DNA of 55,303 nt. Origin: a virus. Positions 227-28,655 of this stretch are shown one piece after another (within the stretch, counting starts at the first letter, position 1; every line of letters starts with the position of its first letter). Where the stretch lies: UHGV virus genome UHGV-0114783. One strand, given 5' to 3'. The notes under the pieces are model-generated. The model did not search any database. It was not told the origin of the DNA and was given only the letters and a program-made list of their open reading frames with translations. The position numbers were made by a program, and so were the translations under genes.

Positions 227-1435
227 ATGTGTACCCATTCAATGATCACCGACACAAAGCTCAGGAAGGCGCTCGGCAAGAAAAGAGATGATATCGAGAT
301 TATTTCTGATTCGCACGGGCTCAACGCCAGAATCAGCCAGGCCGGAAAAATATCATTTTTCTATCGGTATCGCTGGGCCGGTAAAGCGGTAAAACTCAAT
401 GTTGGTGATTATCCTGCAATGAGTATCACCCAGGCAAGAGAGCGTCGCCAACAATTCAGAAACTGGTTAACTGAGGGACTGGATCCGCGAGAGCAGGTGA
501 AGCTGGATAAGCAGACCCGACAGGAAGCGATGTCCGTTGCCGAAGCGTTCAATTACTGGATTGAAAGGCACTGTATCGCTAACGGGCTAGTTAAAGTCGA
601 TTACTATCGCCAGGTGTTTGAGAAACATATCGCCGAACCGATGAAGAATGTCAAAGTCGATAACACAGCGAAAATGCACTGGATCAACGTCTTCGATTCT
701 ATAGAAAGCAGGGTGATGGCTCATTACATGCTTTCGCTGTGCAAACGGGCGTTTAGGTTCTGCGTTAACAGAAGTGTGATCGCCTCAAACCCACTCGAGG
801 GATTACTGCCATCTGATGTCGGGCAAAAGCCTAAAAAGAGAACTCGCAGGATGGACGATGACGATCTGCGCAAAATCTATCAGTGGTTGAAAAGCCATAT
901 GTCGATAGAGTCCGTTTTCCTGGTGAAATTTATTATGCTTACCGGATGCCGTACGGCTGAGATTCGACTTAGTGAGAGATCATGGTTTCGATTGGATGAT
1001 AATGAGTGGGTCGTGCCTGCGGGCAGTTATAAAACTCGGGTACATATTAGAAGGGGACTCTCAGACGCCGCCGTTAACCTGGTCAGAAATCACCTCAAGA
1101 AAATAAACACCAATCACCTGGTGACTTCACAACGTAAAATTGATGGCGGGATCAAAGATTCGCCCGTTCATTCACCTGTGGCATCCAATTACGCCCGTTC
1201 TATTTGGAATGGAACAGGTATGGCAGAGTGGTCGCTTCATGATATGAGGCGGACGATAGCCACAAATCTCTCTGAGTTAGGTTGCCCGCCGCACGTAATT
1301 GAAAAGCTGCTCGGGCATCAGATGGTGGGGGTTATGGCGCATTACAACCTTCATGACTATATCGATGATCAGAAACACTGGCTCCGCGTTTGGCAGAGCC
1401 ATCTTGAAGAGATCATCGGAGAGCCCTTCAGTTAA
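227..1435 (+). CDS. int: Tyrosine integrase (P4/CP4-57-like)
   Basis: ORF track 185..1435; N-terminal TDTKLR..FFYRYRW arm-binding-like region and C-terminal R..HxxR..Y-type motifs ([24 protein letters not shown]). Start uncertain (GTG 185, ATG 227 or ATG 242). Confidence 0.85.
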
Positions 1436-1951: not shown

Positions 1952-3070
1952 TCAGGCCACGTATTCCGGTTTCATATCCGCCAGGGTGATGCTGAATTGA
2001 TCGTGCAGTTCATCGCCTAAGTGACGCTTTGAAGATGCAAGCATGCGCTCGGCTTCAGCGAACCGTTCTGCTGCATGCGGCTCGTCGGGCTGGGGCAGGG
2101 ATTTAATAGCCTCCTCAACCTTGTTGCGTGCATCCACTAGGTAATAACGCTTTACGGCTTTGTTTTTCAGCTCGGTGAATAGTGCGGATCCCAGCGTAGC
2201 TTTGGCCGTTTCAATGTCGGCACGCAGCGATTTGGCGCTATCCACGTCCTGAGCAGATTCGATGCGTTCGCGGAAATCATCGGCAAGAGAGTCGACATTT
2301 ACCGACGATTCCTGTGCGCTTTGCGTGGTTGTGACGGTGTCACCTGAGATATCAGCCAGGCTAACGCGTTGCGGCGTTGGGTTGATCTCTTTTTCTGTGC
2401 GCTGTTCAATCTCATCAGGGGTGTACACACCAAGAACAACTGCAGGGCAATATAGGCGCGCCCAGTATTTGAGTGCCAGATAAGCGATCTGCTGTTTCGG
2501 GTTTGATACCCAAAGTGGAGAATTACGTGTGATTACGCTGGAGAGGAAAACAGGCTCTCCCCAGGTGATATCACTTTCACCGCGAATAACGGCACCTACC
2601 CGTACCGACAGTCCTTGTTCATCAGCACTTTCCCAACCGCGTACCATTTCTTTCTTGTCGTACGTCCCGCCACCTTTCGCAGGCTTTTCAACGGTTATCT
2701 CGCGGCTGCTGGCACATTTCGACCAGTCGCCCTCGTACTCATAGTGAAAGCGGCCAACGATGGCGTTTGAGCTGGAGATCACCGCATTAACCAGTTGCGC
2801 TTCGTATCCCAGGACACCGTTAACCAGGTGCGTCTTTTGCGCCACGGCGTAAGGGTTCATACCCCACTGCATCGCCTGCATGATGATGGCCATGCAGTCT
2901 GCCGGATTGCCGCGGAGGTGCTCAGGCACCGTTACGGCTGCCTGTGCCATCAACCCGGCGACAGACTGAAGCTGGGTTAAAGCCTGCACGTTGAAAATGG
3001 CATTGCTGGCTGAGATCGTGTTTGGAGTCTGCTGTTCAGCGGTTACGATATTCGTGTTTTCCATCATCAT
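1952..3070 (-). CDS. recT: RecT-family single-strand annealing recombinase
   Basis: 372-aa ORF directly downstream of the exonuclease gene, sequence character of RecT family. Confidence 0.75.
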   Translation of the reverse strand: MMMENTNIVTAEQQTPNTISASNAIFNVQALTQLQSVAGLMAQAAVTVPEHLRGNPADCMAIIMQAMQWGMNPYAVAQKTHLVNGVLGYEAQLVNAVISSSNAIVGRFHYEYEGDWSKCASSREITVEKPAKGGGTYDKKEMVRGWESADEQGLSVRVGAVIRGESDITWGEPVFLSSVITRNSPLWVSNPKQQIAYLALKYWARLYCPAVVLGVYTPDEIEQRTEKEINPTPQRVSLADISGDTVTTTQSAQESSVNVDSLADDFRERIESAQDVDSAKSLRADIETAKATLGSALFTELKNKAVKRYYLVDARNKVEEAIKSLPQPDEPHAAERFAEAERMLASSKRHLGDELHDQFSITLADMKPEYVA

Positions 3071-3075
3071 TCCCC

Positions 3076-6000
3076 TTATGCCTGAGTACGCAGCGCTTCA
3101 AGGCGGCGCAGGTCGAAGTCGTTCAGTTCGTCGGTGTAGTCAGCAGTGATTGGCGCTGGCCATTCACCTGTGTCGAATCCGGTTGCGATATTGCGCATCG
3201 CTTTGCGGTACTCGAGCATACCCAGCTCCAGTAGTTCAGCGGATGCCTCGATGATGGCGATCCAGTGGTAGTTCTCGTCTTTGTTGACGAAAATCCAGAA
3301 GAACTGATCCAGCGCTGCGGTTTCGCAGTACATAGCCGCGCTCAGGTGATAATCACGTTCAATAATTTCCCGGTGTAGCCTGGCGCGCAGGCTTTCCTGC
3401 TTAACATTCCACATGCTGATGGTTTTCAGGTCTGCACCTATACGCACGCCATCCAGGTCGATCTCAAGGTCAGGGCGCACACGAACTTCCAAGCCCGTCT
3501 CCTCGTCAAAACCAAAGTAGCTCACCTCAACGGCTCGGCTAGGGTGGGTCAGCAGCATGCCGGCGGTCGGGTGTGCCAGAAGCGCTTTTTGAATATTCAG
3601 CGCGGTGCTCAGCTGCTGGCGGGTGACCAGCACTTTTCCTTCCGGGTTATCGCGCCAGGCATCCAGCAGTTCGTCGGCAAATACGGCATCTGGTTTGACT
3701 GCCTTCACGGCCTGGATCATGTCTGCTTTGGTACCGGACACTTTCAGTGGTGCCGGTTTCTGTGCTTCCTGAGCCACAAGGTCAGGGTTGATGATTGCCA
3801 ACTGCTCCAGCAGCGCGTCACGGCTGCCGCTGGTTTTAACCGGCGGCGGCAGGGTGGCGTTGTACTCTTTAATGCATGCCTTCATTGCCGTCGCCGTCTG
3901 CTTCTGGTCACCATCAATACGCTGGAAGTCAGCTGGCAGCGCCATATAGTTCTGTGCCGTTTCTTCCAGGTTAGCGCCAAGCGGAACCTGCGGCGGCAGG
4001 GTGGCGTTGTACTCTTCCAGTAACACCTTGATGTCGTCGGCAGACAGCAGCGCCGGCAGGCTGGCATTGTGCTCATCGATAAAGGCGCGCAGGGTCGCGG
4101 CCGTTGTGAATGCGCCTTCAGGGATCACCGGTTCAACGCTGAATTCTGCGTCCAGTAGTTCAGGCTGCAACGCCAGCGCATGCACCAAGTTGCCCATGTC
4201 CAGCACCGCTGAGCGCTCTTTGACGATGGTTTTCTCTACGTGGCGCGCATTGAAGTACATCAGCGAAACGCGCGCATCTTTCACCTGGGTTGAGCTGATG
4301 CCGTTGGCGGCGTGGTAAACCTCGTTTGGCAGCCCTTCATAGCGGCCTGGCTCGAAATAAGCGGGATAAACAACAGCTGGTTCGTCAGATTGCGCTTCTG
4401 GCTCGGTTTGTGCTGCAACTGGTTCGGTTTGGCTTACAGAATCGCTATTTTTGGCGACAGAATCCGTATTCTGGTCTACATCGTCCTTCTGGCTGGTATC
4501 TGACTCTTCACCAGACTCCAGACTGCTTTCGCCTGGCTGTACTTCATCACCAGCTTGTTTTTCATCACTGACAGTTTCTTGAACCTGCACATTGCTGGTG
4601 GTCTCCGTAGCCTTTTTCGTGCCATGAGTTGCTGAGTTCTGCAGCAAAGCCGTAACGTCGAATATTCCGTTGCCGACATTTTTAACCAGTTCTTGTTCGA
4701 CTTTCTGCGGTTGTGCTGCCGCTTCCTCTGCGCGGCGGCGTGCTCCTTCTTCACGCACGCGTTGCAGGTTCTCTTCGTGAGTGCAGAAGGATTTGCGCGG
4801 AGACTCCTTACCTTCAGGTTGGGGAATTTCCTGTGCTGCGGGTTCAGCCTCATGCAACGGCAATAACTCGACCGCGGAATTGAACGCGGCTGTCATGGTC
4901 TGGTTAACAAATTCCAGGTGAGCGACAGGAGTTAAATGAATATTTTCCGGTGCGATACGTACCAGGTTAAAAATAGCCGTGCGGTTAACACCCAGAACGC
5001 CTGGCTGATTGCGCAGGATGTTGCTCCATGATTTCCATGGTTCTTCTTTTTTGGTCACGATTTCTTTAGCGCGACGAAGAATGCTGCCCGGGATCTCGAA
5101 GTGGTTGAAGTCCATAGGCAGAAGGGCACACGCAATCTCTAAATCGAGAGTGTCCAGTGTGTGGTGTGCGTCAGGTCCACGGTCAGTGACGTAACCGCCG
5201 TCGGCATTAGTGCCGGAATCAGTACGCTGCACACTACTGATGCGATTACCGGCGGCCCATTCGCGAACGAGGATACCGCGGTCGATGTGATCTGTAGCGA
5301 ACCACAATTTCAAAAACTGGATTAAGGTTGCGAGTTCAGGGATTTTTCCATCGACAGGGAAGACTTTCTTAACGGCATTCACGACTTTATGAATATCGTG
5401 CTCAATGGCTTTTTTGAATGCTTCCACATTCTCAGCTGCCAGCAGCAGGTTCTGGACGTACGCGTCATCGGTGTCCATCTCAAGGCGGACAATCTCATTT
5501 TTCTGCCCTGCGTCGATGTGATAGAGATATTCACCATCACCGATGAACTGAGCCAGTACGCGCTGGCGGAATGGCAGGGTGGCAACAACGATCAGGTTCG
5601 GTTGCTGTGTCTGCTGGGATTGCTCTTCGGTATCGACTTCACCATCAACGACGCCACCTTCTGCCCGGCCGTTCTCGTCGGTCTGGATACCGTCCTCAAC
5701 AGTGAGATCTTGACCCGTTGTAACGTCAGCAGCGTTGCTGGTTTCAGTTTTGAGCAACTGCAACTTACCACTGCGCCAGTCTTCTACCAGTTGATTGCGG
5801 TCACCGGCATCGGTGTTCACCCAGTCAGACATGAATGCAGCGATCAATCTTGGCTCGTGCTCTTCGTCTGGTGTGAAAATGTCCTTAACCGCCCGAATCA
5901 TTTTCCACTCAGCATTCAGGCTGAGTTTGGCGGTCGCGGGCACATCGTTCCTTGCCACAAGCAGGCTATGGAGATATGTATTGCCTTCATCCAGTGACAT

Positions 6001-6465
6001 TTCGCTGGCAGCCAACTGCTGCTCTTTAGTGACGTGGGTTTGGTATTTATCGTTCATCAGATGGACGGCAAAGCGGACCGCTGGAGTACGGTTTTCAACC
6101 GGGACAATTTCGGACGCAGTCGCATCTTCAACGATTACGGTCGGAGTAGGTGTGTAGGGGGCGTCAACGGAACCAGTAGACACACCAGCGGCTTTTGGCA
6201 GCCAGGTGCGCCCATCGTCCTGAAGCTCGTAGCGATCACACCAGGTAAAATCAACTTCACCTTCTTTCGGCAGGCCGTCGACAACTGGGAAATCAGTGCG
6301 AATCGGTTTGGCGTAGTCCTTACCCCGACCTGTTTCGATACCTGCATCTTCCAGCGCAACATCCAGCATCAGATTGGCGCGAGCCTCGGTTTTAGCAGTG
6401 AACCAGACCACTGCATCTTGCTTTCCGGATTTCTGAGTGGCTTTAACCACATTAAAGAATTCCAT
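3076..6465 (-). CDS. recE: RecE-like exonuclease VIII (large, with acidic/repeat-rich N-terminal part)
   Basis: 1129-aa ORF upstream of recT; C-terminal region resembles RecE nuclease domain; contains in-frame internal repeats. Confidence 0.65.
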   Translation of the reverse strand: MEFFNVVKATQKSGKQDAVVWFTAKTEARANLMLDVALEDAGIETGRGKDYAKPIRTDFPVVDGLPKEGEVDFTWCDRYELQDDGRTWLPKAAGVSTGSVDAPYTPTPTVIVEDATASEIVPVENRTPAVRFAVHLMNDKYQTHVTKEQQLAASEMSLDEGNTYLHSLLVARNDVPATAKLSLNAEWKMIRAVKDIFTPDEEHEPRLIAAFMSDWVNTDAGDRNQLVEDWRSGKLQLLKTETSNAADVTTGQDLTVEDGIQTDENGRAEGGVVDGEVDTEEQSQQTQQPNLIVVATLPFRQRVLAQFIGDGEYLYHIDAGQKNEIVRLEMDTDDAYVQNLLLAAENVEAFKKAIEHDIHKVVNAVKKVFPVDGKIPELATLIQFLKLWFATDHIDRGILVREWAAGNRISSVQRTDSGTNADGGYVTDRGPDAHHTLDTLDLEIACALLPMDFNHFEIPGSILRRAKEIVTKKEEPWKSWSNILRNQPGVLGVNRTAIFNLVRIAPENIHLTPVAHLEFVNQTMTAAFNSAVELLPLHEAEPAAQEIPQPEGKESPRKSFCTHEENLQRVREEGARRRAEEAAAQPQKVEQELVKNVGNGIFDVTALLQNSATHGTKKATETTSNVQVQETVSDEKQAGDEVQPGESSLESGEESDTSQKDDVDQNTDSVAKNSDSVSQTEPVAAQTEPEAQSDEPAVVYPAYFEPGRYEGLPNEVYHAANGISSTQVKDARVSLMYFNARHVEKTIVKERSAVLDMGNLVHALALQPELLDAEFSVEPVIPEGAFTTAATLRAFIDEHNASLPALLSADDIKVLLEEYNATLPPQVPLGANLEETAQNYMALPADFQRIDGDQKQTATAMKACIKEYNATLPPPVKTSGSRDALLEQLAIINPDLVAQEAQKPAPLKVSGTKADMIQAVKAVKPDAVFADELLDAWRDNPEGKVLVTRQQLSTALNIQKALLAHPTAGMLLTHPSRAVEVSYFGFDEETGLEVRVRPDLEIDLDGVRIGADLKTISMWNVKQESLRARLHREIIERDYHLSAAMYCETAALDQFFWIFVNKDENYHWIAIIEASAELLELGMLEYRKAMRNIATGFDTGEWPAPITADYTDELNDFDLRRLEALRTQA

Positions 6466-28436: not shown

Positions 28437-28655
28437 CGGGTTTAGCAGCCTGAACGTTCTAGCGGGTAGCCGCTGATTTCCGTATAGCGGTATTTTTACG
28501 CCCGAAAACCAACCACACCCCCGATTTATGGCGGGGCGTGGTGGGGAGGCTTAACGCCTGCTGGTTTCCTAGAACGCCAGTCTGCTAACCCCGCCACGTC
28601 TCGCCACCCATGTTTAGCAGCATCTGGCGAGACTCCTTCAATATGTTCTAGGAGC
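28437..28655 (+). ncRNA. Candidate structured regulatory RNA region with mutually complementary repeats (P4 immunity-like arrangement)
   Basis: TTTAGCAGC...CGTTCTAG at 28441..28462 and again at 28613..28650, complementary block CTAGAACG...TCTGCTAA at 28569..28589, GC hairpin near 28512..28545. Confidence 0.35.

What the first reader, a model, noticed from the sequence alone, without database searches (positions are those of the whole stretch)
3845..4016. In-frame duplicated segment within the RecE-like gene
A segment of about 25 bp (GGCGGCAGGGTGGCGTTGTACTCTT) recurs 147 bp apart, giving repeated protein blocks (EYNATLPP...) in a 1129-aa exonuclease that is larger than the E. coli Rac RecE I recall. 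This suggests repeat-driven expansion of the non-catalytic N-terminal region.
Basis: seen in the sequence. Interest (0 to 1): 0.25.

Follow-up and report, generated by a model that had tools for sequence, protein, structure and literature searches.

The report
Copy-variable helical repeat in RecE nuclease
A short in-frame DNA repeat inside a prophage RecE exonuclease gene is real and lets natural E. coli strains gain or lose a 49-amino-acid block, but it lies in a folded helical array on the catalytic domain's DNA-capture loop, not in the N-terminal region.

Summary
Observation confirmed. A 32-nt segment occurs at 3838-3869 and 3985-4016 (31/32 identical, 147 nt = 49 codons apart). A diverged third copy lies at 4045-4076. 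All three are in frame in the 1129-aa RecE-family gene (3076-6465, minus strand) and encode [D/E/K]E[H/Y]NA[S/T]LP.

The repeats lie inside the C-terminal PD-(D/E)XK nuclease domain, between active-site His762 and the RVRPD/DLK catalytic motifs. They sit in a 156-aa, eight-helix array (aa 787-942) that replaces Rac RecE residues about 677-692. Those residues fall within the disordered loops 665-698 on the channel rim, which are thought to capture dsDNA.

The repeat does drive expansion and contraction. E. coli CUWW10 has an exact 147-bp duplication. E. coli 730V1 and a diverged metagenome contig have exact 147-bp deletions. Relatives vary in 20-, 32- and 49-aa units, and a sister clade has a minimal array. 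Copies within a genome share lineage-specific synonymous codons, which indicates gene conversion.

AlphaFold2 predicts the array confidently. It has no whole-domain structural match, and its units are sub-threshold SAP-like. A DNA-holding role is inferred, not shown.

Most of the extra length over Rac RecE comes from this array plus a separate ~172-aa N-terminal duplication. Moderate interest.

The parts
3076..6465 (-). RecE-family exodeoxyribonuclease gene, 1129 aa
   Evidence: ORF. Pfam PF06630 Exonuc_VIII at aa 4-102, E=1.3e-32, and PF12684 DUF3799 at aa 952-1104. Annotated as 'RecE family exodeoxyribonuclease' in a 100% identical E. coli HH107 record.
3079..4368 (-). C-terminal PD-(D/E)XK nuclease domain (aa 700-1129), including the inserted array
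   Evidence: AF2 mean pLDDT 96.8, pTM 0.82. Best PDB match is 3h4r, E. coli RecE. Invariant Y717, H718, G758, E980, R997, D999, D1012, K1014 and Y1039, and nearly invariant H762, in 76 homologs.
3640..4107 (-). Helical repeat array, aa 787-942 (eight helices), inserted where Rac RecE has residues ~677-692 of its rim loop 665-698
   Evidence: The flanks align to Rac RecE: window 775-786 to Rac 665-676, and window 943-948 GKVLVT to Rac 693-698 GKTVIT. Helices are listed. The array folds alone with pLDDT 90.8. It is gapless in 23 diverse representatives. The role of the Rac loop comes from PMC11611040 section 2.3.
3838..3869 (-). Repeat copy C (gene-distal), encoding KEYNATLPPPV, aa 866-876: end of helix U4 plus its Pro-rich linker
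3985..4016 (-). Repeat copy B, encoding EEYNATLPPQV, aa 817-827: end of helix U2 plus linker. 31/32 nt identical to copy C.
4045..4076 (-). Diverged repeat copy A, encoding DEHNASLPALL, aa 797-807: end of helix U1 plus linker. 75% identical to copy C.
3870..4016 (-). The 147-bp (49-codon) unit that is duplicated in CUWW10 and deleted in 730V1 and L031. The exact boundaries are arbitrary within the repeat.
4180..4182 (-). Active-site His762 codon (equivalent to Rac RecE His652)
   Evidence: role of His652 from PMC3239189 and PMC11611040
3424..3483 (-). Catalytic core motifs RVRPD (aa 995-999) and D1012-L-K1014
   Evidence: Invariant columns in A1; coordinates.
5767..6048 (-). N-terminal module copy 1 (aa 140-233)
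   Evidence: Self-comparison at offset ~172 aa. BLASTP against copy 2 gives 30% identity, E=1e-11. Both copies align to Rac RecE residues 164-248.
5248..5532 (-). N-terminal module copy 2 (aa 312-406)
1952..3070 (-). RecT family recombinase (372 aa), the partner gene immediately downstream

Best explanation
The repeated 32-nt segments encode the conserved junction (helix C-cap Asn plus the Pro-rich linker '..EYNATLPP..') of homologous helix-linker-helix units. These units build a folded eight-helix array inside the RecE nuclease domain. The array is an elaboration of the loop that in Rac RecE (residues 665-698) projects from the rim of the tetramer's central channel and is thought to capture the dsDNA end.

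The same motif is encoded several times in one reading frame, 60 and 147 nt apart. The copies therefore act as substrates for unequal recombination, replication slippage and gene conversion. This homogenises them within a genome and occasionally adds or removes whole structural units (49 aa here; 20 and 32 aa in relatives) without breaking the frame or the unit boundaries.

Shown: the location, the fold confidence, conservation of the array, the allelic series, and the concerted evolution of the copies.

Inferred: that the array, whose units resemble SAP motifs, forms a crown of four arms around incoming duplex DNA and helps to hold it. The particular recombination pathway that makes the indels is also inferred.
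For: 1. Repeat: exact, in frame, and not expected by chance.
2. Location: the repeat lies between His762 and the catalytic core. The flanks align to Rac RecE 665-676 and 693-698. The Pfam DUF3799 match is split into two stretches; the reported one, aa 952-1104, lies beyond the array and begins at profile position 72 of 233.
3. Rac loops: residues 665-698 are described as long, largely disordered loops projecting from the channel rim, presumed to capture dsDNA (PMC11611040). Consistent with this, 3h4r has 219 modelled residues out of a 265-residue chain.
4. Fold: AF2 gives pLDDT 96.8 and pTM 0.82 for aa 700-1129, and pLDDT 90.8 for the array alone. Eight helices emerge from a beta-ribbon stem, strands 775-777 and 945-947.
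5. Constraint: the array is gapless and 42-56% identical in 23 diverse representatives, against 56-72% for the C-terminal core. Asn800, Asn820, Asn869, Gly880 and Gly911 are invariant.
6. Allelic series:
   - CUWW10 has a perfect 147-bp tandem duplication, with only 2 other differences in 3390 nt.
   - 730V1 has an exact deletion.
   - L031 has an independent deletion in a diverged lineage.
   - P0012 has +49 aa made of two diverged units.
   - P0013, P0114, P0119, P0120 and P0121 carry an extra 20-aa unit plus an extra 31/32-aa unit.
   - A sister clade has an array shorter by 98 aa.
7. Concerted evolution: copies B and C share lineage-specific synonymous codons. Only 28 of 40320 pairings among 8 lineages match as well as the true pairing.
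9. Generality: an unrelated-looking 24-aa tandem unit, 72 nt and 89% identical, is amplified at the same site in another RecE lineage.
Against: - The array is acidic (net -9, pI 4.5), which is unusual for a DNA-binding module, although the whole protein is acidic.
- I had no model coordinates and no multimer prediction, so the orientation of the array relative to the channel is taken from the Rac RecE literature, not measured here.
- Each copy-number allele comes from a single assembly, so assembly error cannot be excluded for any one of them.
- Copy-number variants are rare: 2 of about 35 near-identical E. coli alleles and 1 of 24 metagenome contigs. The two-copy form is strongly preferred.
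Confidence: 0.6

Rival explanations
1. The helical array is a protein-docking platform (for RecT, SSB, or a host or phage factor) rather than a DNA-holding device. Copy number would then change the valency or reach of that interaction.
For: The array is acidic, net -9, pI 4.5. RecE nuclease domains are known to bind their cognate annealase (general knowledge; the review discusses exonuclease-annealase coupling). The partner RecT here is long, 372 aa, with a C-terminal extension.
Against: RecT length does not track array size. A RecE homolog with only a short loop (P0183) sits next to a 366-aa RecT, and one with a long array (P0161) sits next to a 344-aa RecT. The equivalent Rac loop is assigned to DNA capture and became partly ordered in DNA complexes. 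The only recurrent family signal for the units is SAP, a DNA-binding motif.
Confidence: 0.22
2. The array is functionally neutral filler. On this view, a slippage-prone surface loop has grown because the site tolerates insertions, and copy-number variation is mutational noise.
For: Alleles with 1, 2 and 3 units all keep an intact ORF. The same site carries unrelated repeat arrays of very different length in other lineages, and almost nothing in minimal family members: 84-86 aa between the His and the RPD motif, against 232 aa here.
Against: The canonical 160-residue architecture is kept without a single indel in 23 representatives down to ~42% identity. It is conserved nearly as well as the catalytic core and has invariant Asn and Gly positions. 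AF2 predicts it at pLDDT above 90 even in isolation. The two-copy form predominates strongly.
Confidence: 0.1
3. The 32-nt repeat is a nucleic-acid-level element (a protein-binding site, an antisense or regulatory RNA feature, or a recombination hotspot sequence) that merely overlaps the coding region.
For: Near-perfect nucleotide identity (31/32), including synonymous positions.
Against: Across lineages the nucleotide sequence drifts at third codon positions (CCG, CCA, CCT, CCC; GCG, GCA, GCT, GCC) while the peptide motif and the invariant Asn are kept. So selection acts on the protein, and within-genome identity is explained by gene conversion. No Rfam family matches there. The repeat does not contain the Chi octamer GCTGGTGG (read from the sequence).
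Confidence: 0.03
4. The copy-number alleles are assembly artefacts, caused by collapse or expansion of a short repeat, and there is no real polymorphism.
For: Each variant is seen in one assembly. Repeats are classic sources of misassembly.
Against: 147-bp units bounded by 32-nt repeats are far shorter than sequencing reads, so misassembly is unlikely. Variants appear in independent sources and lineages: two complete genomes, one metagenome contig with a diverged sequence, and one metagenomic protein with two diverged units. Further 20- and 32-aa unit variants occur in Klebsiella and E. coli proteins.
Confidence: 0.05

Closest known systems
E. coli Rac prophage RecE (exonuclease VIII), nuclease domain structure PDB 3H4R
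   Same: Same family and fold. The N-terminal Exonuc_VIII region and the C-terminal PD-(D/E)XK core both align. The active-site His and the E / RPD / DxK motifs are conserved. RecT is adjacent. The array occupies the position of Rac RecE rim loop 665-698.
   Different: Rac RecE has a ~34-residue, largely disordered loop at this site. The window protein has ~174 residues there, of which 156 form a confidently predicted eight-helix repeat array with variable unit number. It also has a duplicated N-terminal module, making 1129 aa against 866 aa.
SAP domain (Pfam PF02037; e.g. MKL1 2KVU, Hcc-1 2DO1, E1B-AP5 1ZRJ) and the related Rho N-terminal helix-extended-helix motifs
   Different: Every score is below the curated or customary threshold. 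The units are chained so that one helix is shared between neighbouring units. The array is acidic overall. DNA binding is untested.
Copy-number variation of intragenic repeats by unequal crossing-over or replication slippage between short direct repeats (established for bacterial and phage genes; general knowledge)
   Same: Exact gain or loss of the inter-repeat unit, with the junction inside the repeat. Frame is preserved. The 32-nt homology lies 147 nt apart. The copies evolve in concert.
   Different: In the common allele only the short motif is repeated, not the whole unit. The variation alters a folded array on an enzyme's catalytic domain, not a surface antigen or a disordered linker. 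The variants are rare, not hypervariable.
Gifsy-1/Gifsy-2, HK225, mEp237 and Klebsiella prophage RecE homologs
   Same: Same architecture, including the array. HK225 RecE is 95% identical at the nucleotide level over the full length and keeps copies A, B and C.
   Different: In these homologs the copies are less alike at the nucleotide level, for example 27/33 in HK225 and 26/33 in Gifsy-1 against 31/33 in the window. Some Klebsiella and E. coli relatives carry extra 20- and 32-aa units.

Membership tests
RecE family exodeoxyribonuclease (exonuclease VIII) | N-terminal Exonuc_VIII region (Pfam PF06630) | tested here: met
   E=1.3e-32, 113.7 bits against a cut-off of 25. BLASTP to Rac RecE residues 6-248 and 182-351.
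RecE family exodeoxyribonuclease (exonuclease VIII) | C-terminal PD-(D/E)XK nuclease domain with the active-site His, Glu, RPD Asp and DxK | tested here: met
   PF12684 at 39.3 bits against a cut-off of 26. The only phmmer hit in the PDB is 3h4r, and Foldseek's top hit is 3h4r. H762, E980, D999, D1012 and K1014 are invariant or nearly invariant in 76 homologs.
RecE family exodeoxyribonuclease (exonuclease VIII) | Genetic pairing with a RecT-family annealase in a prophage recombination module | tested here: met
   RecT at 1952-3070, immediately downstream on the same strand, with an integrase and lambdoid regulatory genes nearby.
RecE family exodeoxyribonuclease (exonuclease VIII) | 5'-to-3' dsDNA exonuclease activity and a toroidal tetramer | not testable with these tools
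   Needs biochemistry or a multimer model. Only a monomer was predicted.
SAP domain (PF02037) | Sequence match above the Pfam gathering score | tested here: not met
   Best 14.2 bits against a cut-off of 23.9 for the array. 15 of 38 single units match with best E=0.0011, all below threshold.
SAP domain (PF02037) | Helix-extended loop-helix fold superposable on solved SAP domains | tested here: inconclusive
SAP domain (PF02037) | Binds double-stranded DNA | not testable with these tools
   No experiment was possible. Net charge -9 argues for caution.
Tandem intragenic repeat (variable-number tandem repeat) | Head-to-tail copies of a whole unit in the sequence at hand | tested here: not met
   TRF finds no 147-nt array in the window. 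Only 32 of the 147 nt recur. The CUWW10 allele does contain a perfect 2 x 147-bp tandem.
Tandem intragenic repeat (variable-number tandem repeat) | Unit number differs among otherwise near-identical alleles | tested here: met
   Alleles with 1, 2 and 3 units occur at 99.8% identity or better elsewhere in the gene. An independent 1-unit allele is L031.

The most novel reading that the evidence does not exclude
RecE-family nucleases may carry, at their dsDNA-capture loop, an evolvable crown of SAP-like modules. On this reading the number of modules is tuned by recombination between motif-coding repeats, possibly catalysed by the RecET single-strand-annealing activity the locus itself encodes. 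Different module numbers would change substrate capture, for example end type, processivity or linear-linear recombination, or evasion of host factors. The natural 1-, 2-, 3-unit and minimal-array alleles would then be a ready-made length series for dissecting what the uncharacterised RecE rim loops do.
Probability: 0.12. Interest if true: 0.55.

Novelty: new variant of a known kind. Interest (0 to 1): 0.35.

Why it matters
RecET is a workhorse of recombineering, yet the rim loops of the RecE nuclease domain are disordered in the only crystal structure and their role is only presumed. This prophage lineage replaces that loop with a structured, conserved, modular helical array. Nature supplies near-isogenic alleles with one, two and three units, plus a sister clade with a minimal array. 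Together these make the loop's contribution to DNA-end capture and processivity directly testable, and they offer variants for engineering RecET systems.

The finding also illustrates how a short conserved motif, encoded repeatedly in one frame, keeps a folded repeat domain evolvable by unit-preserving unequal recombination. The practical point is ordinary: length differences among annotated 'RecE family' proteins at this site are real alleles, not annotation errors.

Tried and rejected
- Tandem Repeats Finder on the gene found only a 21-nt repeat in the acidic linker and nothing at the finding. The feature is a set of dispersed short repeats, not a tandem array.
- Pfam on the array gave only sub-threshold SAP, DnaG_DnaB_bind and DUF7668.
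- The unit profile also hit N-WASP and Spire WH2 motifs. I rejected these as short-helix 'G.K..LL..IR' look-alikes that cover about 12 residues.
- I tested whether the array co-varies with the long C-terminal extension of RecT and found no support. P0183 has a short loop with a 366-aa RecT, and P0161 has a long array with a 344-aa RecT. Two other contexts were cut off.
- I considered an RNA or DNA-level element. There are no Rfam or tRNA hits at the locus, and variation across lineages follows a protein-level pattern.
- Literature searches for RecE plus SAP domain returned nothing. I found no description of this array in the RecET reviews or papers read.
- I could not obtain model coordinates, so contacts between the array and the core, and its orientation, could not be measured.
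Full report
**1. The observation**

No occurrence is expected in dinucleotide-preserving shuffles.

Extension gives 32-nt copies at 3838-3869 and 3985-4016. They are 31/32 identical and 147 nt apart. A third, diverged copy (75%) lies 60 nt further on, at 4045-4076.

All three copies lie in the minus-strand ORF 3076-6465 (1129 aa). Both spacings are multiples of three. The copies encode DEHNASLPALL (aa 797-807), EEYNATLPPQV (817-827) and KEYNATLPPPV (866-876).

Only about 11 of each 49 codons are repeated. Tandem Repeats Finder sees no 147-nt array here.

**2. What the gene is**

- The product has the Exonuc_VIII N-terminal region (PF06630, E=1.3e-32) and a DUF3799/PD-(D/E)XK C-terminal domain (PF12684).
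- Its only sequence relative in the PDB is E. coli RecE, 3H4R.
- RecT lies immediately downstream (1952-3070). An integrase and lambdoid early genes flank the pair.
- A 100% identical copy sits in a prophage next to kch in E. coli HH107.
- Phage HK225 RecE is 95% identical over the full length. Gifsy-1/2, SPN3UB and Klebsiella prophage genes are about 80% identical over the 3' half.

**3. Where the repeat lies**

It is not in the N-terminal non-catalytic part.

BLASTP to Rac RecE (taken from MG1655) aligns two blocks:
- Window aa 704-786 aligns to Rac 595-676. This block includes active-site His762, equivalent to Rac His652.
- Window aa 943-1104 aligns to Rac 693-850.

That leaves window aa 787-942 (156 aa) opposite Rac 677-692 (16 aa). 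The reported stretch of the split Pfam domain match (aa 952-1104) lies beyond this gap and begins at profile position 72 of 233.

In an alignment of 76 homologs the invariant catalytic residues are Y717/H718, G758, E980, R997, D999, D1012, K1014 and Y1039 (coordinates checked). The repeats therefore lie in an insertion inside the nuclease domain.

[quoted passage not shown] Consistent with this, 3h4r has 219 modelled residues out of a 265-residue chain. The insertion is thus an elaboration of that loop.

**4. Structure of the insertion**

AlphaFold2 on aa 700-1129 with a 76-sequence alignment gives mean pLDDT 96.8 and pTM 0.82. The insertion forms eight helices. In protein numbering these are about 789-802, 809-822, 833-841, 858-871, 882-892, 894-901, 913-923 and 930-939. 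They emerge between strands 775-777 and 945-947.

Predicted alone (aa 780-950), the insertion keeps the same helices at pLDDT 90.8 and pTM 0.69. It therefore behaves as an autonomous domain.

Locally, the units look SAP-like, that is helix, extended linker with a conserved Gly, then an N-capped helix:
- A profile of 38 units hits the MKL1 SAP domain 2kvu at E=0.009.
- 15 of 38 units hit Pfam SAP, and 8 hit SAP_new25.

All of these are below threshold, so I describe the units as SAP-like and do not file them as SAP domains.

The repeated 'EYNATLPP' motif is the C-terminal end of the first helix plus the start of the linker. The Asn residues (800, 820, 869) and linker Gly residues (880, 911) are invariant in 42 homologs.

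**5. Is the array constrained?**

Yes. In 23 diverse representatives it aligns without a single gap over 160 residues. It is 42-56% identical where the C-terminal catalytic core is 56-72% identical, and at greater distance the two are equally conserved, at about 35-39%. This argues against neutral filler.

**6. Repeat-driven expansion and contraction**

Among complete E. coli genomes, 55 carry the region and 34 are at least 99% identical to the window. Two of these have a different length.

- CUWW10 has 748 bp where the window has 601 bp. Its gene has three exact 25-mers at 147-nt spacing. The two 147-bp units are identical to each other and to the window's unit, and the rest of the gene differs at 2 of 3390 positions. 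The ORF is intact at 1178 aa.
- 730V1 has 454 bp. This is an exact 147-bp deletion with the junction inside the repeat. It produces a hybrid 'EEYNATLPPPVKTSG' and an intact ORF.

A metagenome scan with the exact 25-mer returned 24 contigs:
- 19 show the canonical 171-aa segment.
- 4 contigs cut off near the site still show both 147-nt-spaced copies.
- One, L031, is a one-unit allele in a clearly diverged sequence, so it is an independent deletion.

Variants in protein databases:
- P0012 has +49 aa built from two diverged units, which suggests an unequal exchange between different alleles.
- P0013, P0114, P0119, P0120 and P0121 carry an extra 20-aa 'S.DDIKALLE.HN..L' unit. This matches the 60-nt A-B spacing.
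- The same proteins also carry an extra 31/32-aa 'SGSRD.LLEQLA.INPDLV...KP.P.K' unit.
- A sister clade (P0148, P0149, P0152, P0154, P0157) has a minimal array that is 98 aa shorter, with one 'EYN' helix joined directly to one 'LTGKKEEL' unit.
- Minimal family members have only 84-86 residues between the active-site His and the RPD motif, against 232 here.
- In a different RecE lineage the same site holds unrelated-looking 24-aa tandem units ('KP[ST]DK.I...E.W..AGKPE'), expanded from 120 to 210 and 257 residues. The 72-nt DNA repeats there are 89% identical.

The site is therefore a general hot spot for unit amplification. The deletion joint fuses helix U2 to helix U5 through a hybrid linker at equivalent positions of two homologous units. 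This explains why frame and module boundaries survive.

**7. Why the copies are so alike at the DNA level**

Across eight lineages the codon-aligned 33-nt copies B and C share lineage-specific synonymous codons:
- CCG CCG in the window
- CCA GCA CAG GTG in L004
- CCT GCT CAG GTG in L011
- CCC GCC CAG in L009

True within-genome pairs are 26.9/33 identical. Permuted pairings give 25.3 +/- 0.49, and only 28 of 40320 permutations reach the observed value. Relatedness among the lineages is a caveat.

This is the signature of gene conversion or repeated unequal exchange. It also shows that the peptide is what is conserved, not the nucleotide sequence, which argues against a DNA- or RNA-level element. 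No Rfam family or tRNA maps there.

**8. Why the protein is bigger than Rac RecE**

There are two main causes besides linker differences:
- The array adds about 140 aa.
- An old duplication of an N-terminal module adds about 172 aa. Residues 140-233 and 312-406 are 30% identical, E=1e-11, and both copies align to the same Rac RecE segment, residues 164-248.

The 49-aa unit itself accounts for only a small part of the difference.

**9. Mechanism and confidence**

Shown:
- the repeat
- its position in the catalytic domain at the rim-loop site
- a confidently predicted and conserved helical array
- unit-number alleles with junctions in the repeat
- concerted evolution of the copies

Inferred:
- The array forms four arms around the dsDNA entry and helps to hold the end. 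This rests on its position in the Rac loop and on the sub-threshold SAP resemblance.
- The indels arise by slippage or unequal recombination. The pathway was not tested.

Against a simple DNA-binding role, the array is acidic (net -9, pI 4.5).

The main rival is a protein-docking role. I looked for co-variation with RecT length and found none.

**10. Novelty**

The gene family, repeat-mediated indels and SAP-like motifs are all known kinds. I found no description of this array in the papers searched or read. I rate it a new variant of a known kind, of moderate interest. Its main value is a natural, near-isogenic length series at the uncharacterised DNA-capture loop of a widely used recombineering enzyme.

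Noticed in passing
window 5767-6048 and 5248-5532 (minus strand; aa 140-233 and 312-406 of the RecE-family protein): There is an old internal duplication of a ~95-aa N-terminal module at an offset of ~172 aa (30% identity, E=1e-11). Both copies align to the single equivalent segment of Rac RecE, residues 164-248. This accounts for much of the extra length over Rac RecE.
   Followed up: partly
window 4398-4477 (minus strand; aa ~663-690, acidic linker before the nuclease domain): Short 21-nt (7-codon) tandem repeats lie in the acidic, low-complexity linker: TRF 4428-4470, plus repeat families D4 and D19. They give reiterated 'DSVAKNS/DSVSQTE' and 'TEPVAAQ/TEPEAQS' peptides. This is a second, different slippage-prone stretch in the same gene.
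   Followed up: no
window 28524-28611 (+): The only Rfam hit in the window is a C4 antisense RNA (RF01695, 76.1 bits against a gathering score of 45, full-length). This is the P1/P7-type immunity antisense RNA, elsewhere in the prophage.
   Followed up: no
L015 5451-5594 (Logan SRR29002874 contig) and proteins P0177, P0187, P0192: A different RecE lineage carries unrelated-looking 24-aa (72-nt, 89% identical) tandem units, 'KP[ST]DK.I...E.W..AGKPE', at the same loop site. The copy number varies: 120, 210 and 257 aa between the active-site His and the RPD motif.
   Followed up: partly
protein P0167 (456 aa, from the representative library): The sequence reads as RecE up to the third helix of the array ('...LGASVDETYASYEQL') and then continues directly into the middle of RecT ('SNPKQQIAYLGVKYWARLYCPEV...'). 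This suggests a deletion fusing recE to recT, or a misassembly.
   Followed up: no
L006 (E. coli EC2001, NZ_CP133811.1), homolog of window ~3076-3973: The recE homolog is truncated inside the array. Identity to the window ends at about window position 3973, between repeat copies C and B. The neighbouring recT is also partial, next to IS26 and ISNCY transposases, so this prophage recombination module has been rearranged.
   Followed up: no
L005 (E. coli 730V1), L010, L012, L003, compared with window 4700-6465: RecE homologs that are near-identical in the nuclease domain differ widely in total length (914-1178 aa) because of mosaic N-terminal and linker regions. For example, mEp237 matches the window at 99.4% only over the 3' 2217 nt. 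Recombination breakpoints within recE therefore seem common.
   Followed up: no
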